From Defluviicoccus sp. (GTDB taxonomy: Bacteria > Pseudomonadota > Alphaproteobacteria > MPNO01), in the NCBI GenBank assembly GCA_028820505.1, contig JAPPIT010000034.1:25565-89564 (forward strand): a DNA stretch of 64,000 nucleotides, written 5' to 3'. The position numbers and the translations under genes were made by a program. The notes under the pieces are model-generated. The model was not told the DNA's origin. It did not search any database and saw nothing but the letters and a program-made list of their open reading frames with translations. Below, in pieces: positions 28,533-36,874 of this stretch; the stretch's first letter is position 1, and each line of letters starts with the position of its first letter.

Positions 28533-29963
28533 TCACGCGGTCCCTCTGCGGCCGCGCGCGGCGCGATGCTTGGCCGACGTTCCGTGGCGTCGGACGATGG
28601 GCGCGTCACGGACCGTCCGAATCGCCGCCGGCAGCTGATCCTTGAGAAAACGATCCTGGTCCCAGCCGGTGGCCCGCCCGTCCTGCATGACCATGGCCCC
28701 ATCGATCACCACCGCCCTGATCTGATCGCGATTGTAGTGACGCACGAGGTCCCATTCGAAGTCCCAGGACGGAAGGACTTCGGGGGCCTCCATGTCGAGA
28801 AGAAGGAAATCGGCGCGGCAGCCCGGCGCCAGGCGGCCGGCGACGTCGGCCAGGCCCGAGACGTCGGCGCTGCCCTTCGTGGCGGCATCCACCCAGGTCC
28901 AGCCGGCGCCGCACGAGAAATCGTTCACCCGCATTCCGAACGCGATTCGCTGGCAGCTCTCCGCCGCGTCCAGCATCCGGAAACCGTCGCTGCGCGTGCT
29001 GTCCGTTCCGAGACCCAGCCGGACTCCCCGTTCGACATAGGTGCAGGCCGGCGACACGGCATCGCCCTTCCAGTGCGAGGCGACAGGGTTGTAACTGACC
29101 GCGCTTTCCGTCGAACGGATGAGTTCGATTTCGGACTCCGTCACGAGAGTCCCGTGATGCAGCAGCGTATGGCGGCCCAGCGCGCCGCAATCGGCGATGA
29201 ACTCTATCGGGCGGCGGCCATGCTCGACGACGCTCGCGTGGACTTCCGGAATGTGCTCGTTGGCGTGAATCTGGAACAGGGCGTTCCGTTCCGCGCAGAA
29301 ACCGGCCAGCTCCCCGATCAGCTCCTTCGAAGCCCCTTCCACGCCGGAAACGCACAAAGACGGGTAGATGCCGGGTTCGCGCTCGCAAAGCGCCATGTGG
29401 TCCTCGGCCCGCTTCAAGGCCTCGTCGATGTGTTTCAGACCCGAACCGCTACCCGAACCATCCGGTTCGACCGGCCGGTTTACGGCGCCCGTGCTCGAGA
29501 CCAGGCGTACCCCGGTTTCGCGCGCCGCCCGGTGGATGGCTTCGGTCTTCTCGCGGTTGATGATCGCGAAGTTCACGACCCCGGTGAAACCGCCGCGCAG
29601 GGCTTCCAGGAACATCCATTTGGCGCATACGTAGCTGAGCTCCGGATCGAGCCGGCCTTCCAGGGGAATCCAGATTCGCCGCCATATCTGGGACGGCTCG
29701 CCGCCGATGATCGATTTCCCGAAACCCTGCCCGAGATGGATATGCGCGTCGATGAATCCCGGAATGACGGCCCGGCCCGGGAGCGGCACGACATCGGTCC
29801 GTGGATGGGTTTGCGCGAATTCCGCTCGGTCGGCGACGGCGGCAATCGCCCCGTTCTCGACCAGCATGACGACGTTTTCTCTGGCACCATCGGGGGCAAG
29901 GAGCAGATCGGGCGCAATGGCGTAGCGCTGCGCCGCGAAGATATCCGCCATCGCGGTACTCAT
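28533..29963 (-). CDS. amidohydrolase-superfamily metal-dependent hydrolase, paralog 2
   Basis: IDAHIHLGQ (HxH), HANEH, GLGTD and a C-terminal block near-identical to paralog 1 (VSYNPVASHWKG…NDFSCGAGWTWVDAAT…ADFLLLDMEAPEVLPSWDFEWDLVRHY); start set at ATG 29963 so the N-terminus aligns with paralog 1 (YAIAPDLLLAPDG vs YALRPDLILGPDG). The track's longest ORF starts at TTG 30062. Confidence 0.8.
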   Translation of the reverse strand: MSTAMADIFAAQRYAIAPDLLLAPDGARENVVMLVENGAIAAVADRAEFAQTHPRTDVVPLPGRAVIPGFIDAHIHLGQGFGKSIIGGEPSQIWRRIWIPLEGRLDPELSYVCAKWMFLEALRGGFTGVVNFAIINREKTEAIHRAARETGVRLVSSTGAVNRPVEPDGSGSGSGLKHIDEALKRAEDHMALCEREPGIYPSLCVSGVEGASKELIGELAGFCAERNALFQIHANEHIPEVHASVVEHGRRPIEFIADCGALGRHTLLHHGTLVTESEIELIRSTESAVSYNPVASHWKGDAVSPACTYVERGVRLGLGTDSTRSDGFRMLDAAESCQRIAFGMRVNDFSCGAGWTWVDAATKGSADVSGLADVAGRLAPGCRADFLLLDMEAPEVLPSWDFEWDLVRHYNRDQIRAVVIDGAMVMQDGRATGWDQDRFLKDQLPAAIRTVRDAPIVRRHGTSAKHRAARGRRGTA

Positions 29964-30095
29964 CGCCTTCGGTAGCGGCGCGGAGAATGCCGTTCCATCG
30001 CCTTGGTGCCGATGCTGCATGCCGTCCATTGATGTTACAGTGAAACAATCCATAGATTCCAATAAAGGATTTTTGCTAGTCTATAGTTTGTTTCT
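29964..30095. promoter_or_regulatory. AT-rich divergent promoter/operator region between the LysR gene and the amidohydrolase-ABC-TauE operon
   Basis: Locally AT-rich (about 70% AT) within a 65%-GC context; inverted repeat ATAGA(30052-30056)-N23-TCTAT(30080-30084) plus the palindrome CTATAG at 30081-30086; classical position for LTTR autoregulatory and activation sites. Confidence 0.45.
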
Positions 30096-31385: not shown

Positions 31386-32996
31386 CTATAACAGGATTCC
31401 GATCCTCTTGCTCAGACTGAGGTAGTTCCAACCGTCTTTGTGCCGGTAGCGCAAATCGTCGACATATGTGCGTACCAGATGCAGACCGAGACCTTCCACG
31501 ATCGTTTCTTCCTCAATCGTGTCCGGACCGGGCTGCAACATGAAAGAATCGGGGCTCAGTTCACCGCCCCGATTCACGAAGCGGATTGCAAGGCTCCGCT
31601 CTTCGTCGCCCATCTCAAGGTGGACCTCGATCCCGTGCGTGCCGACATCGTCATGGCTGCGCTCCACGATGTACATGATCGTCTCTTCGACACAGAGCTG
31701 TATCTGGAACCGGTCCGGTTGCGGAAGCCCGTGCTGCTCGGCGAAATCGTCGATCGCCTCCGCGACCCGCTCCATCTCACCGCGGACCTCGCGCACGGTC
31801 AGGCTGAAGCTTCGGGCCGGTGCCGAGGACGAGTCCGAGCGATTCGCGGCTGTCGACGTCCCCTCGCGGCCCTTTTCCGTCCGGAGTCCTGTCCGCCGCG
31901 CGCCGGACGTTCCATCCCCGCGCACGAGTGCGCTCAACGCCGCGGCATCAATCGCCGGTGTTGTCGACTTGGGTGGCCAGCTCCGGTCCCCGGCCTTCAC
32001 GACCAAGCTCTTGATCGCTTTCCTCAGATCGACCACCAGCGGCGTCTGCCGCAGGACGTCGAATGTCCGCGAATGCTCCGGGAGGCACAGATGCCGGTAG
32101 AGCATCTGATAGGACACGACGTCATCGGCGGCGAGGTCGAACACGTCCATCGGCGAAGCCGGGTCTTCCGGCGAAAGCCCCGCGGCGCGGAGCAGGGCGG
32201 CGAGCGCCCCGCGGCTTATCCGGTCTTCGTCGAACCCGTCCTCTACTCTGTGCAGGGCGCCCATCATGGCGAGGTAGTTTGAGTTCAGCGGCTGGCTGAA
32301 GCTCCACAGCGGGCGCGTCGGGTTGGTGAGGTAGCGACGCTCACCGCCGCGGTGAGGCCGCAGCAGGGCGGCGTTGCGATGGGGAAAGCGGTCGAACAGG
32401 AGCAAGGTTTCCGAGTGCTCGATCGCGCCCTTCACAAACGACCAGCCGACGAACTGGTTGATCCTGCGCCGCTCGGCCGGCGCCTCCGCGACGAGGTCGG
32501 CGCTCATGCGCGCCGTCTTCTCGACGCAGAGCTCTTGCAGTTTCAGATCCTCCATGTGGCACAGGGGAAAATATATCCAGAGCCGCTCGATGGGGTTGTA
32601 GTGCGCCAGCTCCCGATCCGCCTCGCAGGCCTGCCGGGACAGCGAAGCGGCCACGAGATCGTTCGCGTAGGCCAGAGCCGTGCCGCGATAGACGCATCGC
32701 GGAAACTGGTCGAGGACGATCAGTTTCGCCAGAACGCCCTGCGGCGTGTCCCAGACCGGATCGTCGAAAAACCGCTCCACCCCCTCGCGGTGCATCTGGT
32801 CACACCACATGCGTTGCGCCCGGAGAGCGTTCGGATCCACGGTGTTTCTGGCGAACGGTCCGGCCCGCCACCGTCGCATCGCCTGCCGCCAGTTCTCGCG
32901 GGAAGCGTCGGCCGGCGACCGCAAGCGACCGAGCCAGAATTCCAGCACCGCCTCCGGAGAGCGTTCCGCAATGCCAAGGTGCTCGACGGCGCTCAT
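31386..32996 (-). CDS. DUF924-domain protein fused to a C-terminal HATPase_c anti-sigma-factor-type Ser/Thr kinase-like domain
   Basis: N-terminal half carries DUF924 hallmark blocks (LIVLDQFPRCVYRG…; FPLCHMEDLKLQELCV). The C-terminal about 130 aa resemble RsbW/SpoIIAB-type GHKL domains (…LCVEETIMYIVE…GLGLHLVRTYVDD…). They are joined by a low-complexity S/T/A-rich linker in one continuous 536-codon frame; SD GGGAGAAG upstream of the ATG at 32996. Confidence 0.55.
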   Translation of the reverse strand: MSAVEHLGIAERSPEAVLEFWLGRLRSPADASRENWRQAMRRWRAGPFARNTVDPNALRAQRMWCDQMHREGVERFFDDPVWDTPQGVLAKLIVLDQFPRCVYRGTALAYANDLVAASLSRQACEADRELAHYNPIERLWIYFPLCHMEDLKLQELCVEKTARMSADLVAEAPAERRRINQFVGWSFVKGAIEHSETLLLFDRFPHRNAALLRPHRGGERRYLTNPTRPLWSFSQPLNSNYLAMMGALHRVEDGFDEDRISRGALAALLRAAGLSPEDPASPMDVFDLAADDVVSYQMLYRHLCLPEHSRTFDVLRQTPLVVDLRKAIKSLVVKAGDRSWPPKSTTPAIDAAALSALVRGDGTSGARRTGLRTEKGREGTSTAANRSDSSSAPARSFSLTVREVRGEMERVAEAIDDFAEQHGLPQPDRFQIQLCVEETIMYIVERSHDDVGTHGIEVHLEMGDEERSLAIRFVNRGGELSPDSFMLQPGPDTIEEETIVEGLGLHLVRTYVDDLRYRHKDGWNYLSLSKRIGILL

Positions 32997-33382: not shown

Positions 33383-34282
33383 CTACTGCTGCCGCCTCGC
33401 GCCGAAGGCGGCGATCATGTTGGAATGCTCGAAGATGCCCGCCGCCTCGGCGTGGCCGGGACCGTGGAAGCCGCCCTGGATGCGTGCGCCCGACTGGCCT
33501 CTTGCGAAGGTCCCGTCCGGCCCGACCTCGAGGTCGGAGAAGATCACCGCCTCGACGCCATACGCCGTGCCGCGGTCGATGTTCTTGATGCCGCTGAGCC
33601 CGGCATCGAGTCCGCCGGCGCTCATGTCGTAGTTGAGCGCCGCCGTCCCGACCAGCCGGTCGCCGCGACCGTCCCCGGCGATGGGCGTTCCCACCATGAT
33701 GCCGAGCCAGGTGGCGGACCCGGTCAGCGGGCCATCGGTGAGATCTCCCAGGGCGAGCGCGTAGGAGTAAGCGGACTCTACCTCGCCCCCGATCGCTCGA
33801 TCGTTGAAGAGCCCAAAGGAGCCATGCTCCATCCAGGCGCCGAGCGAGGTCCGGTCCAGGCCCATATGCCGCCCGGTCTCCGCCAGGAGCGTGATGCCGT
33901 GCGCGGAGCCGATGGCCTCGGCATCGCCCCGCAAGACCGGGGAGGTGGCGAGATCCCTCGCGTCCGTCTCGCCGGTCACGGGGTCGAGTACTTCGCATCG
34001 CGGACCGGCGCACTCCGACAGCAACCGGAACCTGCGGGCGTCGTCCGGAAGCACGGCCTCCACGTGCATCGTGGAGAGGATCAGGGAATCGGCCCGCGCG
34101 GAATTCTCCTGCTGACGCGCCTGCTGCGCCTGTCCGGTCTCCATCGGCGCGGACAGGCCGGTCAGTTCCCTGATGTCGTCGAGCCCGAGGGCCGGCCGCG
34201 AGCCGGAACCGCCGTTCCCGCCGCAGGCCGCGAGGGAAAGGATGGCTGCCGTCGCCATGACGCAGGCAAGATGGACTCTCAT
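33383..34282 (-). CDS. surface/periplasmic lipoprotein with TbpB/fHbp-like C-terminal beta-barrel (lipoprotein_5-type)
   Basis: Signal peptide with lipobox (ILSLAAC); Gly-rich mature N-terminus; C-terminal motif …IQGGFHGPGHAEAAGIFEHSNMIAAFGARRQ matching the 'GxFYGp…E.gG.F…aFGakr' end of TbpB-like handle/barrel domains. Confidence 0.5.
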   Translation of the reverse strand: MRVHLACVMATAAILSLAACGGNGGSGSRPALGLDDIRELTGLSAPMETGQAQQARQQENSARADSLILSTMHVEAVLPDDARRFRLLSECAGPRCEVLDPVTGETDARDLATSPVLRGDAEAIGSAHGITLLAETGRHMGLDRTSLGAWMEHGSFGLFNDRAIGGEVESAYSYALALGDLTDGPLTGSATWLGIMVGTPIAGDGRGDRLVGTAALNYDMSAGGLDAGLSGIKNIDRGTAYGVEAVIFSDLEVGPDGTFARGQSGARIQGGFHGPGHAEAAGIFEHSNMIAAFGARRQQ

Positions 34283-34344
34283 GTCGGTGTCCTCCGGAAA
34301 GATCGATCGACAGGGCGGGCCGGCGCATCCACGGTCGAGGCCCT

Positions 34345-34503
34345 GCCGGTCGATTCGGCGACGAAGTGATGGCCGCGACGCTGATCGACCGGTTGGTCCA
34401 CCACTGCCACATCGTCAACATCCGGGGCAACTCATACCGCGTGCGGGAGCGACAGAACCTGCTGCAATCCGGCTCGGATCGGCGCCGCAAAAAGGCCGCG
34501 TAG
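34345..34503 (+). mobile_element. istB: IS21-family istB (transposition helper ATPase) 3'-terminal remnant
   Basis: Frame encodes …GRFGDEVMAATLIDRLVHHCHIVNIRGNSYRVRERQNLLQSGSDRRRKKAA*, matching the conserved IstB C-terminus (F.GD..M..A.LDRL.HH.H….G.SYR…). Nothing of istA or the rest of istB is present. It is followed at 34523-34538 by the palindrome GATAACC-G-GGTTATC and a related copy ACCCGGTTACC (34552-34562), possibly end-repeat relics. Confidence 0.55.
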
Positions 34504-34869
34504 CACTCGCCGGCCCGCTGTGGATAACCGGGTTATCTCGCCAGACTCGTCGCCGGTCGCTGCGCCAACCCGGTTACCCAAAGCTCCACCGAGACCAACA
34601 CCCCCACCACCGCGCCTGGAGGACGACCGCAACCTCAAAGTGAGAAATTCTCAGTCGGAATTGACAGCAAAAGAACTTTCTCACATGCAGAACTCCGATG
34701 CGCCTATCCCTAGTGAGACATCCGGGTTAAAGCCTGTCCGTTTGGGGTGGAGCCGCCGACGCGGCACCGCACGGGGATGCGCCTCAGGCAGACCGCCGGA
34801 CCCTCGAGACCGCGCTGCGCCCAAGTGCGGTCAACGCCGGTCGCGCCCTCGCAGTAGAGGGATCCCAGC

Positions 34870-35235
34870 GTCTCGCCTTCTCCAGATGCCCCATCACGAT
34901 ATAGCCGGTGCCATGGGCCTGAAAGAAGTGCTGCACCCGGACGATGCTGGGATGATCGAAACGCGCGAGCGTCCGGGCCTCGCCGAGAAAACGATCCAGC
35001 CCCCACAGATAATCCTTCTCGTCCTCTTCCGATCTGGGCAGGACGGTCCGGTCCGCTTCCCGTGCCGCCGTACCCGCCGGCATGTATTCCTCGATGGCGA
35101 CCACCTGCTGGAGCAGGGTGTTCCAGCCGCGATAGGTGATGCCGAACCGCCGTGACCGATCACCCCGTCGATCTCGAAATCCTCCAGCCGCGTGCCCGGC
35201 GGCAAGGCGTCCCTGTCGACCGATCGCTCGGTCAT
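34870..35235 (-). pseudogene. Hanks-type Ser/Thr protein kinase, N-terminal fragment with frameshift
   Basis: Reads MTERSVDRDALPPGTRLEDFEIDGVIGHGG (Gly-loop) then, after a -1 shift in a T-run near 35146 (ggttcggc vs expected ggtttcggc), …VAIEEYMPAG…FLGEARTLARFDHPSIVRVQHFF…GYIVM… (kinase subdomains II-V). Homology stops around 34880, so it is also 3'-truncated, about 370 nt from the IS21 remnant. Confidence 0.5.
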
Positions 35236-35298
35236 TTTCGCCCCGGATCGGGCAAAGGGTTCGAGTGTCTCACCGGGTCGGGTCCTGCCCCGTAGATC

Positions 35299-35688
35299 CT
35301 ATCCCGCCCGCTTCTTCGCCTCTGCGGTCAGCCTGTCCGCCCCGGTCGCCAGCTTCTTCGTCGCTGCCGTCAGCTTCCTCGCCTGTTCCGCACTCCTTCG
35401 CGCGTTTGCGGCCAGCCTTCGCAACTCCGCGATCCTGCGGTCGATCTTCTCCACCGCGCGGGCTTGCGGGCTCGATTCCCTCAGATTCTTGAGATGAGCC
35501 GCGGCTGTCTTCGTTTTCCTGTCCTTGAGGGCGGCCTCCGTCCATTGCTCGTATTTCCCGAACACCCGTCGCAACCCCCCGCGCGCGCGGACGTTCTCCG
35601 GTTCGAGGGCCTGCGCCTTCCGATAACAGTCGATCGCGGCCCGCGCGCCATCTTCGGTCAGGCTGTCCGGGGGAAACGGCTCTCGCAC
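35299..35688 (-). CDS. hypothetical TPR-like/coiled-coil protein (or out-of-frame C-terminal extension of the PP2C gene)
   Basis: C-terminal 129 codons of a longer GC-junk ORF look protein-like (…AIDCYRKAQALEPENVRARGGLRRVFGKYEQWTEAALKDRK…AELRRLAANARRSAEQARKLTAATKKLA…); only a GTG start overlapping the PP2C end by 30 nt is available. Confidence 0.25.
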   Translation of the reverse strand: MREPFPPDSLTEDGARAAIDCYRKAQALEPENVRARGGLRRVFGKYEQWTEAALKDRKTKTAAAHLKNLRESSPQARAVEKIDRRIAELRRLAANARRSAEQARKLTAATKKLATGADRLTAEAKKRAG

Positions 35689-36665
35689 TCCGCGACCTGC
35701 CTGTCGCCCGGGTTCGAGGGGGCCAGCCAGTCCGCGTCCAGCGTGCCGGCCGCGATGCCCGCCAGCAGGCCGACCATCAGCACGGCGGCGAAGCTCGCCA
35801 ACCGGCGGCCGGACCGCGCCGCCGCCTCGGGTTCGCCGGCGGCGCCCACCGGATCCGTGCGGTGAGCGGCCCGATCGCCCGCCGCGGAGTCGCCGGACAG
35901 CAACAGGAAGGTCACGTTGTCCTGGTTCGGCCCCGCCACGCGCTCGACCGTGGCGAGCAGCGCGCTGGCGGCGTTTTCCGCGCCGCCGCCCGCCCGGACG
36001 AGACAGGCTTCGATCTCTTCCTCCGAAAGGGTCTCCAGCCCGTCGCTCGCGATCAGCAGGTAGTCGCCGGGCCGCAGGCGGCAGGAACGCTCGGCGCGGT
36101 CGACGAGGCTCGCGGGCACGCCCGTCACCGCGGAACGCAGCATGTTGCGCCGGCGGTCGCCCAGCGCCTCCTCTCGGGTCATCTCGCCGTCGCGGACGAG
36201 GGATTCGAGGACCGGCATCATGGAATGGTCCTCGTTCAACCGCTCCAGCCGGCCGTCGGCGAACAGCCACATCGGCGAGTCCCCGACGCTCAGCCAGGAC
36301 AGGCGCCGCCCGTCATAGAGCGCGGCCACGACGGTGCTGCCCATCCCCGCGAGCCGCGGATCGTTCTGTTCCTGCTCCGCCAGGCTGGCCGTGGCCTGCG
36401 CCAGGCACTCGCGCAGACGCGTACCGATCGAGCCGGTCGAACTCTCGAATTGCCGGATGAATGTCCGGACCACGGTATCGCTGGCGATCGCTCCCCCGGC
36501 TTCGCCCCCCATACCGTCGGCGAGCACCATGAGCAGCGCGGGCGGATCCCCGGGTTCGACCGCCTCGACCTCCAGCGCCCCGGAATCGTCCTCCTGGTAG
36601 CGCCGCCCGCCTTGCCATTCCCGGTGCGCCAACGGCCACCCGGGTACCAGGGGAGCCTCCGTCAT
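35658..36665 (-). CDS. PP2C-family Ser/Thr protein phosphatase with C-terminal membrane anchor
   Basis: PP2C motifs (…YQEDDSG…VLADGMGGEAGG…SDGL…); C-terminal TM helix LASFAAVLMVGLLAGIAAG; start MTEAPLV at 36665. Confidence 0.8.
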   Translation of the reverse strand: MTEAPLVPGWPLAHREWQGGRRYQEDDSGALEVEAVEPGDPPALLMVLADGMGGEAGGAIASDTVVRTFIRQFESSTGSIGTRLRECLAQATASLAEQEQNDPRLAGMGSTVVAALYDGRRLSWLSVGDSPMWLFADGRLERLNEDHSMMPVLESLVRDGEMTREEALGDRRRNMLRSAVTGVPASLVDRAERSCRLRPGDYLLIASDGLETLSEEEIEACLVRAGGGAENAASALLATVERVAGPNQDNVTFLLLSGDSAAGDRAAHRTDPVGAAGEPEAAARSGRRLASFAAVLMVGLLAGIAAGTLDADWLAPSNPGDRQVAECESRFPRTA

Positions 36666-36698
36666 CGGTCGCGGCCGGCTCCTGCGTGTCAGATGAAT

Positions 36699-36720
36699 TT
36701 TCCGCATGGAATCCGCATGC
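36699..36720. repeat. tandem direct repeat TTCCGCATGGA / ATCCGCATGCC (11-bp period) in a divergent promoter region
   Basis: CCGCATG occurs twice exactly one helical turn apart, between the divergent PP2C and proline-racemase-family genes. Confidence 0.3.
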
Positions 36721-36874
36721 CTTCGATATGGCAAGGCCGTCCGCCTCGATCGATCCGTGGCGGAAGGTCGCATACATTGCAAACTGAGACACTACCCCCG
36801 GATACTTGTCCCGGTCGTGGGGCTTCATCTCGTTCTCGCCCCGACCGTCTGTTATGTACCGCGCGGACGCACCC

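What the first reader, a model, noticed from the sequence alone, without database searches (positions are those of the whole stretch)
31386..32996. Apparent fusion of a DUF924 domain with an RsbW/SpoIIAB-type anti-sigma-factor kinase (HATPase_c) domain
One uninterrupted 536-codon frame encodes an N-terminal region carrying the conserved DUF924 blocks (LIVLDQFPRCVYRG; FPLCHMEDLKLQELCV). It continues through a low-complexity Ser/Thr/Ala linker into a C-terminal about 130-aa GHKL ATPase domain of the partner-switching anti-sigma kinase type. DUF924 has no known function, and I know of no described fusion to a signalling kinase domain. If real, it would tie DUF924 to a phosphorylation or partner-switching circuit.

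A membrane-anchored PP2C phosphatase and a decayed Hanks kinase lie 2.6-4 kb away, but no STAS-domain antagonist is visible.

The fusion could also be an artefact of two adjacent genes that happen to share a frame. The only candidate internal start (ATG at MERVAEAIDD) has an SD that is too close.
Basis: seen in the sequence. Interest (0 to 1): 0.6.

Follow-up and report, generated by a model that had tools for sequence, protein, structure and literature searches.

The report
DUF924 protein with kinase-dead GHKL tail
This is a real, widely conserved single gene that joins an extended version of the uncharacterised DUF924 domain to an RsbW-like ATPase-fold domain that has lost its key ATP-binding residues; relatives carry calcium- or c-di-GMP-binding modules at the same position, so the tail is most likely a regulatory input rather than a working kinase.

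Summary
Window 31386-32996 (-) is one 536-codon gene encoding DUF924 (aa 17-226), a helical extension (aa 227-359) not covered by any Pfam model, a disordered linker, and an RsbW/SpoIIAB-type GHKL domain (aa 396-531). More than 100 protein clusters, down to 42% identity and in several phyla, keep the same single frame. The internal Met is unique to this copy.

This copy has Tyr at the Mg-ATP-binding N-box Asn and Asn at the adenine-binding G1 Asp. The N-box Asn is lost across a 63-member clade whose GHKL domain is nevertheless conserved. No STAS antagonist or sigma factor lies in the window or is conserved at related loci.

New context: the "long DUF924" core is rare (19 of 1.84 billion representatives). 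It occurs fused to a GHKL domain, to EF-hands, to PilZ domains, or to DEP plus EF-hand domains. It also occurs bare, with the cognate Asn-containing GHKL gene just upstream in 5 of 6 distinct loci.

Best reading: a constant DUF924 output with swappable sensor modules, here a pseudokinase-like regulatory domain. The biochemical activity of DUF924 remains unknown. Nothing on this fusion was found in the searchable literature.

The parts
31386..32996 (-). Complete gene: 536 codons plus a TAG stop. It appears monocistronic, with a 387-bp gap to the upstream lipoprotein gene and a 355-bp gap to the convergent LysR gene.
   Evidence: orthologs begin at the same N-terminus
32319..32948 (-). DUF924 core (aa 17-226), all-helical. 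It carries most of the invariant polar residues (D96 Q97 R100 Y103 R104 D113 E137 R138 H147 E149 E193 H194 R203 R207 N208).
31920..32318 (-). Helical extension specific to 'long DUF924' (aa 227-359). No Pfam model covers it. It includes the RPLWSF(T/S)QP motif and ends with WPPKS...IDxxAL. Every long form has it, whatever its C-terminal module.
   Evidence: pLDDT mostly above 90; conservation; sharp score gap between long and ordinary DUF924
31971..31979 (-). Invariant Trp340-Pro341-Pro342 motif just before the point where the architectures diverge.
   Evidence: invariant in A2 (74 sequences), A5 and A6; codons read
31812..31919 (-). Disordered, low-complexity Ser/Arg/Gly/Thr linker (aa 360-395), variable in length and sequence.
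   Evidence: pLDDT below 50 for aa 362-391; entropy 2.34 and linker length 23-45 aa
31389..31811 (-). RsbW/SpoIIAB-type GHKL domain (aa 396-536; Pfam HATPase_c_2 at aa 407-530).
31659..31688 (-). Degenerate N-box 'EETIMYIVER'. E437 and E438 are invariant, but the Mg-ATP-binding Asn position holds Tyr442 (codon TAC at 31671-31673).
   Evidence: Y in 57, N in 8, H in 3, T in 3 and F in 1 of 74 in the top-five tally; the per-sequence listing also shows one G and one S
31560..31577 (-). G1 box 'VNRGGE'. The adenine-binding Asp position holds Asn475 (codon AAT at 31572-31574); 68 of 74 family members keep Asp.
31476..31493 (-). G2 box 'GLGLHL' (aa 502-507), retained.
   Evidence: G502 in 60 of 74 and G504 in 71 of 74; aligned with the RsbW and SpoIIAB G2 boxes

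Best explanation
The gene encodes a two-module signalling protein.

The N-terminal 'long DUF924' part (DUF924 core plus a 133-aa helical extension) is the constant functional, or output, part. It is probably an enzyme or a ligand-handling module related to thiol or redox chemistry.

The C-terminal RsbW-like GHKL domain, tethered by a flexible linker, is a regulatory input. It probably acts by binding the N-terminal part or a partner of it, or by dimerising, in the way that RsbW-type proteins hold their targets.

The ancestral form of this GHKL module was probably competent to bind ATP. That form survives as a separate upstream gene and in a minority fused clade. In the large clade that includes this window, the Mg-ATP-binding Asn was replaced (mostly by Tyr), and this copy has also lost the adenine-binding Asp. 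Here the module therefore most likely works as a pseudokinase, by binding and without phosphotransfer.

Shown: gene integrity, domain identities, conservation of the fusion, motif states, alternative architectures, and the operonic split forms. Inferred: the direction of regulation, binding in cis, loss of ATP binding, and the chemistry of DUF924.
For: (1) The fusion is conserved in more than 100 clusters across several phyla.

(2) Natural split forms exist. A 365-aa long DUF924 gene has a 146-151-aa GHKL gene of the same subfamily (38% identity, E 8e-35 to the fused domain) 30-68 bp upstream in L090, L099/L100 and L101, one gene away in L087, and 4.4 kb away in L085. That is 5 of 6 distinct loci. 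The gene order is the reverse of the domain order in the fusion, so the link is not a read-through accident.

(3) The same core, up to the WPP/IDV motif, carries other modules: EF-hands (about 30 clusters, including Tsuneonella dongtanensis), two PilZ domains (P0205), or DEP plus EF-hand domains (P0211, P0380). These are ligand-binding input modules, not outputs.

(4) The long core is a discrete, rare family: 19 representatives at E<=1e-30, followed by a gap to 5e-24.

(5) The N-terminal part is the most conserved region, with many invariant His, Glu, Asp and Arg residues.

(6) The N-box Asn is lost in one clade of 63 sequences, defined on a tree built from the N-terminal core alone. The GHKL domain there still shows 63% pairwise identity against 33% for the linker. 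All six stand-alone partner GHKLs keep both the Asn and the Asp.

(7) There is precedent for kinase-negative RsbW homologs that act through protein binding: M. smegmatis RsbW1 and RsbW3 (PMC7693655).

(8) Ordinary DUF924 domains are recurrently fused to GST, DsbA-like and Suc_Fer-like domains (8 of 20 multi-domain representatives).
Against: There is no direct evidence that the GHKL domain contacts the DUF924 part. The AlphaFold output gives no inter-domain error map, and a pTM of 0.68 does not demonstrate docking.

The G1 Asp (68 of 74) and the G2 glycines are conserved in the Tyr clade. Most members may therefore still bind a nucleotide or another ligand, and an unconventional catalytic mechanism is not excluded.

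The PilZ architecture rests on one representative and the DEP architecture on two. Whether those proteins are bacterial was not checked.

No conserved neighbour gives a pathway context. The biochemical activity of DUF924 is unknown.
Confidence: 0.5

Rival explanations
1. Active partner-switching kinase or anti-sigma factor. The C-terminal domain would phosphorylate a STAS-type antagonist, or the DUF924 part itself, and/or sequester a sigma factor. The PP2C 2.7 kb upstream would act as the opposing phosphatase.
For: The fold and sequence are closest to RsbW, SpoIIAB, UsfX, SiaB and the Rv1364c RsbW domain. The invariant E437/E438, the G2 box and, in most family members, the G1 Asp are retained. 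The Asn/Thr clade (8 of its 11 members have Asn) and all split-form partners keep full ATP-binding motifs. One split locus (L101) has a STAS gene 2.7 kb downstream. A PP2C/SpoIIE-type phosphatase lies at window 35658-36782.
Against: This copy lacks both the N-box Asn (Tyr442) and the G1 Asp (Asn475). From established knowledge of GHKL ATPases, equivalent substitutions such as Hsp90 D79N and GyrB D73N abolish ATP binding. The RsbW equivalog models score 13-17 bits against cut-offs of 145-155. There is no STAS or sigma gene in the window and none recurs at related loci; STAS appears in 1 of about 20. The PP2C is absent from orthologous loci L001-L004. EF-hand and PilZ modules at the same position argue for an input role.
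Confidence: 0.17
2. The GHKL domain still senses a nucleotide or another small ligand. It would bind ADP, Mg-free ATP or another ligand in the remodelled pocket and transmit occupancy allosterically to DUF924, without catalysis. This would parallel Ca2+ for the EF-hand forms and c-di-GMP for the PilZ form.
For: In the Tyr clade the G1 Asp is kept in most members (68 of all 74 sequences), and G477 (70 of 74), G504 (71 of 74) and the lid segment 'FQPxPDTIxEE' are conserved. The parallel architectures carry small-ligand sensors.
Against: In this particular copy the adenine-contacting Asp is Asn, so adenine-nucleotide binding is doubtful here. No ligand is known. Conservation of the lid could equally reflect a protein-protein interface.
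Confidence: 0.23
3. Artefact or decay. Either two adjacent genes happen to share a frame, with an internal start producing a separate GHKL protein, or the C-terminal domain is a decaying remnant without function.
For: An in-frame ATG (Met408) precedes the GHKL domain. ATP-binding residues are lost. Split forms exist elsewhere.
Against: Met408 is present in 1 of 74 orthologs. The frame is kept through a linker of variable length in more than 100 clusters. GC3 is continuous. In split forms the GHKL gene lies upstream, not downstream. GHKL pairwise identity within the Tyr clade is 63% against 33% for the linker, which indicates purifying selection.
Confidence: 0.03

Closest known systems
RsbW / SpoIIAB / UsfX anti-sigma-factor serine kinases (Pfam HATPase_c_2; PDB 6M36, 1L0O, 1TIL, 8IH8)
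   Different: The domain is fused to a 360-aa DUF924 module instead of standing alone. It lacks the N-box Asn and, in this copy, the G1 Asp. No STAS antagonist or sigma factor is encoded nearby. The RsbW equivalog HMMs score far below their cut-offs.
Kinase-negative RsbW homologs, e.g. M. smegmatis RsbW1 and RsbW3 (PMC7693655)
   Same: RsbW-fold proteins without kinase activity that act through protein-protein binding. They are a precedent for a pseudokinase role.
   Different: Those are stand-alone proteins inside a SigF partner-switching network. Here the domain is tethered to an unrelated module, and no sigma network is evident.
Multidomain partner-switching proteins such as M. tuberculosis Rv1364c (PDB 3KE6), and the SiaB kinase of the SiaABCD system (PDB 6KKO)
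   Different: Rv1364c fuses the kinase to its own phosphatase and antagonist domains, and SiaB has a dedicated substrate, SiaC. Here the fused partner is DUF924, and no phosphatase or substrate pair is conserved.
DUF924 (PF06041; Atu0120, PDB 2I6H)
   Different: Ordinary DUF924 proteins are about 200 aa and stand alone, or are fused to GST or DsbA-type enzymes. This protein belongs to a rare 'long' subfamily with an extra 133-aa helical extension and C-terminal sensor modules.
Modular bacterial signalling proteins with a constant output domain and variable inputs (for example PilZ- or EF-hand-regulated enzymes)
   Same: One conserved core appears with GHKL, EF-hand, PilZ, or DEP plus EF-hand modules at the same junction.
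   Different: The output domain has no known activity. An RsbW-type GHKL domain is not a commonly recognised input module. This comparison rests on my general knowledge, not on a test made here.

Membership tests
DUF924 (PF06041) | Match to the Pfam model above its gathering score | tested here: met
   114.5 bits against a gathering score of 27, aa 17-226, model positions 1-179 of 180
DUF924 (PF06041) | Fold of the only solved member (2I6H, Atu0120) | tested here: met
HATPase_c_2 / RsbW-SpoIIAB-type GHKL domain (PF13581) | Match to the Pfam model above its gathering score | tested here: met
   48.4 bits against a gathering score of 27.4 (51.9 bits for the domain alone), aa 407-530
HATPase_c_2 / RsbW-SpoIIAB-type GHKL domain (PF13581) | Structure closer to anti-sigma kinases than to histidine-kinase CA domains | tested here: met
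Catalytically active GHKL kinase/ATPase | N-box Asn that coordinates Mg2+-ATP | tested here: not met
   Tyr442 aligns with the Asn of RsbW 'SEACTN' and SpoIIAB 'SEAVTN'. Asn is present in only 8 of 74 family members.
Catalytically active GHKL kinase/ATPase | G1-box Asp that binds the adenine base (DxGxG) | tested here: not met
   The window has 'VNRGGE' (Asn475); 68 of 74 relatives have Asp
Catalytically active GHKL kinase/ATPase | G2-box glycines and the N-box Glu | tested here: met
   E437 and E438 are invariant; 'GLGLHL' is present, with G504 in 71 of 74
Catalytically active GHKL kinase/ATPase | ATP binding and phosphotransfer | not testable with these tools
   Needs biochemistry
RsbW anti-sigma-B factor (NCBIfam NF003144 / TIGR01924 equivalogs) | Score above the curated equivalog cut-off | tested here: not met
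   17.2 bits against 145, and 12.9 against 155.05
Partner-switching system (anti-sigma kinase, STAS antagonist, PP2C, sigma factor) | A STAS-domain antagonist encoded with the kinase | tested here: not met
   No STAS-like ORF in the 64-kb window (rough screen). No PF01740 or PF13466 protein in L001-L004, L085-L090, L099, L100, L102 or L103. One lies 2.7 kb away in L101. The rest of the genome could not be searched.
Partner-switching system (anti-sigma kinase, STAS antagonist, PP2C, sigma factor) | A cognate sigma factor encoded with the kinase | tested here: not met
   None adjacent in the window or in the related loci. The only sigma-70 gene seen (L086) is 1.8 kb upstream of a gene truncated by the contig end, and it does not recur.
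Partner-switching system (anti-sigma kinase, STAS antagonist, PP2C, sigma factor) | A PP2C/SpoIIE phosphatase functionally linked to the kinase | tested here: inconclusive
   A PP2C_2/SpoIIE protein lies at 35658-36782 (-), 2.7 kb upstream and separated by two ORFs. No PP2C is present at the orthologous loci L001-L004.
'Long DUF924' subfamily (defined here) | DUF924 core plus a ~133-aa helical extension with the RPLWSFTQP and WPP motifs | tested here: met
   Invariant in alignments A2, A5 and A6. The family is separated from ordinary DUF924 by a score gap, 1.5e-30 against 5e-24.

The most novel reading that the evidence does not exclude
'Long DUF924' would be a previously unrecognised signal-output domain, probably an enzyme in thiol or redox chemistry. 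Bacteria would wire it to at least four kinds of input: an RsbW-like GHKL module (in cis or from an adjacent gene), EF-hand Ca2+ sensors, PilZ c-di-GMP receptors and DEP domains. Within the GHKL-fused lineage, a whole clade would have converted the kinase into a pseudokinase that regulates by binding alone.
Probability: 0.4. Interest if true: 0.7.

Novelty: new variant of a known kind. Interest (0 to 1): 0.52.

Why it matters
DUF924 is widespread. The exhaustive search found 2976 representative clusters at E<=1e-3, and a crystal structure has existed since 2006, yet no function is known and the searchable literature is essentially silent.

The architectures found here give the first handles for experiments. 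The domain is repeatedly placed under the control of recognisable sensors (GHKL, Ca2+, c-di-GMP). In its short form it is repeatedly fused to glutathione- or thioredoxin-fold enzymes. That makes DUF924 function testable through regulated variants, for example the EF-hand form in the cultured Tsuneonella dongtanensis.

The finding also adds a case of an RsbW-type GHKL domain recruited outside sigma-factor control and then turned into an apparent pseudokinase. That is relevant to how partner-switching modules evolve.

Tried and rejected
It was useful only as a comparison set.

(2) Neighbourhood analysis of about 20 fusion and split loci found no conserved neighbour apart from the GHKL gene of the split forms. 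The recurring amidohydrolase, SelA-like, enoyl-CoA hydratase and acyl-CoA ligase genes were too inconsistent to use.

(3) Neighbours of stand-alone DUF924 (ABC-F ATPase in 21 of 80 loci, LysR in 10 of 80, peroxiredoxin in 6 of 80) are not diagnostic.

(4) L089 first looked like a split form. tblastn shows it is a fusion broken by a stop codon and a frameshift, so it is a pseudogene or an assembly error. P0111 ends 69 bp from the end of its contig, so it is probably truncated by the contig end.

(6) PADLOC defence models gave no hit. Rfam gave nothing credible in or around the gene. No sigma-70-type promoter was found, and no terminator on the gene's own strand.

(7) The 'decayed Hanks kinase' could not be detected.

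(8) The metagenome scan with the middle region returned only 9 loci, but these revealed the EF-hand forms and an adjacent split form.
Full report
**Observation**

Window 31386..32996 on the minus strand is a single 536-codon ORF running from ATG to TAG. Pfam places DUF924 at aa 17-226 (E 7.8e-33, 114.5 bits, gathering score 27). It places HATPase_c_2 at aa 407-530 (E 1.2e-12, 48.4 bits, gathering score 27.4). GC3 is 0.75-0.84 in all four segments of the gene, and the other two frames of the aa 360-536 region contain stops. The gene looks monocistronic. A 387-bp gap separates it from a predicted lipoprotein gene upstream, and a 355-bp gap separates it from a convergent LysR gene downstream.

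**One gene, not two**

A search of 5.8 billion proteins found more than 100 clusters of 515-573 aa that carry both PF06041 and PF13581 in one polypeptide. Identity ranges from 99% to 42%. The source organisms are MAGs labelled Defluviicoccus, Rhodospirillaceae, Rhodobacteraceae/Paracoccaceae, Boseongicola, Gammaproteobacteria, Deltaproteobacteria, Gemmatimonadetes and Acidobacteria.

The window protein shares a 90%-identity cluster with MDE0173159.1, 'DUF924 family protein [Defluviicoccus sp.]'. The linker varies from 23 to 45 residues and always stays in frame. The candidate internal start, Met408, is Met in 1 of 74 orthologs and Leu in 58. The two-gene artefact and a conserved internal start are therefore excluded.

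**Anatomy**

An AlphaFold2 model built on 74 sequences has mean pLDDT 83.6 and pTM 0.68. It shows three parts:
- a helical body spanning aa 14-359;
- a disordered linker, with pLDDT below 50 for aa 362-391;
- an alpha/beta domain spanning aa 396-531.

Residues 227-359 are covered by no Pfam family but are confidently helical and conserved. They include the RPLWSF(T/S)QP motif and an invariant Trp340-Pro341-Pro342. The DUF924 part and the start of the extension are the most conserved regions. They hold many invariant His, Glu, Asp and Arg residues.

**The GHKL domain is degenerate in this copy**

The window protein was aligned with RsbW, SpoIIAB and the stand-alone relatives. It has Tyr442 where the N-box Asn should be, and Asn475 where the G1 Asp should be ('VNRGGE' against the family's 'VDDGRE'). 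The Glu pair E437/E438 and the G2 box are retained.

Across the 74 family members, the five commonest residues at the N-box position are Tyr in 57, Asn in 8, His in 3, Thr in 3 and Phe in 1. The per-sequence listing accounts for the remaining two, one Gly and one Ser. The G1 Asp is kept in 68.

A neighbour-joining tree built only from the N-terminal core separates two clades. One is an Asn/Thr clade of 11 sequences. The other is a clade of 63 sequences without the Asn, and it includes the window. Within the 61 Tyr/His/Phe members of that clade, the GHKL domain still shows 63% mean pairwise identity, against 33% for the linker and 74% for DUF924. It is constrained, not decaying. Between the two clades, GHKL identity is 35% against 59% for DUF924, which suggests a shift of function.

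From established knowledge of GHKL ATPases, the N-box Asn coordinates Mg2+-ATP and the G1 Asp contacts the adenine. Asp-to-Asn changes at that position are the classical ATP-binding-null mutations (Hsp90 D79N, GyrB D73N). I infer that this copy neither binds ATP normally nor transfers phosphate. That is inference, not measurement.

**No partner-switching context**

The NCBIfam RsbW equivalogs score 13-17 bits against cut-offs of 145-155. A rough screen found no STAS-like ORF in the 64-kb window. The PP2C/SpoIIE-type phosphatase at 35658-36782 is real, but no PP2C occurs at the orthologous loci L001-L004. The 'decayed Hanks kinase' could not be detected.

Clustering of neighbours across 17 fusion or split loci showed that nothing is conserved except the gene itself. 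One STAS gene was seen, 2.7 kb from a split locus (L101). PADLOC and Rfam gave nothing.

**Split forms**

A 365-aa version ends exactly at the junction, after '...WPPKSAKHSV..IDV.ALN'. A separate 146-151-aa HATPase_c_2 gene of the same subfamily accompanies it. That gene is 38% identical to the fused domain (E 8e-35), and the subfamily scores well above generic RsbW-like proteins. Its position varies:
- 30 bp upstream in L090 and in L099/L100;
- 68 bp upstream in L101;
- one gene upstream in L087;
- 4.4 kb upstream in L085;
- absent within 8 kb only in the IS-rich L102/L103.

So 5 of 6 distinct loci keep the pair together. The gene order (GHKL, then DUF924) is the reverse of the domain order in the fusion. 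The association has therefore arisen or been maintained independently of simple read-through, which is strong evidence for a functional link. All six stand-alone partners keep both the N-box Asn and the G1 Asp. L089 is a fusion broken by a stop codon and a frameshift.

**Swappable C-terminal modules**

An exhaustive phmmer search of 1.84 billion representatives with aa 1-360 found 2976 DUF924 relatives at E<=1e-3. Only 19 scored E<=1e-30, and a gap follows down to 5e-24. These 19 are the 'long DUF924' forms. Their domain contents are:
- GHKL, the most numerous;
- EF-hand pairs, in about 30 clusters of 581-633 aa, including the cultured Tsuneonella dongtanensis and a Novosphingobium MAG;
- two PilZ domains (P0205, 720 aa);
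- two N-terminal DEP domains plus a C-terminal EF-hand (P0211, P0380);
- a degenerate EF-hand-like tail (P0209);
- no extra domain (357-399 aa).

Alignments show that all of them share the core up to the WPP/IDV motif and diverge immediately after it. EF-hand and PilZ domains are ligand-binding inputs. This places the C-terminal position in the role of a regulatory input, and the long DUF924 core in the role of the constant output.

**What DUF924 may do**

Nothing in the searchable literature addresses it. Of 20 multi-domain proteins carrying an ordinary DUF924 domain:
- 6 are fused to glutathione S-transferase;
- one each is fused to a DsbA-like domain, a Suc_Fer-like (thioredoxin-like) domain, an alpha/beta-hydrolase, a GFO/IDH/MocA oxidoreductase, dephospho-CoA kinase, and DUF383/DUF384;
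- two carry tandem DUF924 domains;
- the remaining six showed no second Pfam domain.

Peroxiredoxin genes recur next to stand-alone DUF924 genes. This points loosely to thiol or redox chemistry, or to detoxification. It is a lead, not a result.

**Verdict**

The fusion is real and conserved, and it is undescribed in the literature I could search. It is best read as a signal-regulated DUF924 protein whose RsbW-like module serves as a regulatory domain. In this copy that module is pseudokinase-like. It is not best read as an anti-sigma kinase of a partner-switching circuit.

My confidence in the 'regulatory, non-catalytic GHKL module on a DUF924 output' model is about 0.5. A ligand-sensing variant of the same idea gets about 0.23, an active kinase or partner switch about 0.17, and artefact or decay about 0.03.

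Novelty: a new variant of known kinds, namely an RsbW-type GHKL module recruited to an uncharacterised output domain. Interest is moderate. The main value is that it makes DUF924 experimentally approachable.

Noticed in passing
proteins P0294, P0317, P0226, P0347, P0224, P0232, P0308, P0300, P0298, P0230, P0253, P0285: Ordinary ~200-aa DUF924 domains are repeatedly fused to thiol or thioredoxin-fold enzymes: GST in 6 of the 20 multi-domain representatives scanned, plus one DsbA-like and one Suc_Fer-like. Other partners are an alpha/beta-hydrolase, a GFO/IDH/MocA oxidoreductase, dephospho-CoA kinase, and DUF383/DUF384. This hints at thiol or redox chemistry for DUF924.
   Followed up: partly
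L005-L084 (stand-alone DUF924 loci): The recurrent neighbours of stand-alone DUF924 genes are an ABC-F-type ATPase (ABC_tran + ABC_tran_Xtn + ABC_tran_CTD) in 21 of 80 loci, a LysR regulator in 10 of 80, an acyl-CoA dehydrogenase in 7, and a peroxiredoxin (AhpC/TSA) in 6. This may simply reflect synteny among related proteobacteria.
   Followed up: partly
window 33383-34282 (-): A 299-aa ORF just upstream has a lipoprotein-like N-terminus (...LSLAAC...) and a weak, sub-threshold match to the TbpB_B_D beta-barrel of transferrin-binding protein B (E 1.3e-3, 19.7 bits against a gathering score of 26). It may be a surface lipoprotein.
   Followed up: no
window 34300-35660 and 35658-36782 (-): The PP2C_2/SpoIIE-type phosphatase is real (E 3.4e-10). 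That stretch has no clear gene.
   Followed up: partly
L099 4199-9098, L101 4020-9104, L003 4472-9557: In the split loci, a multihaem cytochrome gene, a ~490-aa gene with no Pfam hit, the GHKL gene and the long DUF924 gene are co-directional and tightly spaced. The fused locus L003 has a similar pair (a multihaem cytochrome and a 498-aa gene with no Pfam hit) divergent from the fused gene. In that lineage this suggests a link to extracellular or respiratory electron transfer.
   Followed up: no
L085 9200-9260 and 9299-16661: A fragment resembling a tRNA 3' end (ggttcgaatcctgcccc) lies just after the stop codon of the long DUF924 gene and is followed by a cluster of IS transposase genes. It looks like an integration hotspot that may have displaced the GHKL gene.
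   Followed up: no
L101 11843-12184 (+): This is the only STAS-domain gene (113 aa, PF01740/PF13466) seen near any member of the family. It lies 2.7 kb downstream of an adjacent GHKL / long DUF924 gene pair whose GHKL keeps its ATP-binding motifs.
   Followed up: no
P0211 (831 aa), P0380 (858 aa), P0205 (720 aa): These are long DUF924 proteins with two N-terminal DEP domains plus a C-terminal EF-hand, or with two PilZ domains. DEP domains are mostly eukaryotic. The source organisms were not determined.
   Followed up: no
window 28533-30062 (-); L001 10569-13408; L003 9598-10506: Amidohydrolase (Amidohydro_1) genes lie within a few kb of the fusion gene in the window and at two of the four orthologous loci examined first (L001 and L003). 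SelA-like genes occur in L001 and L002. The pattern is too inconsistent to interpret.
   Followed up: partly
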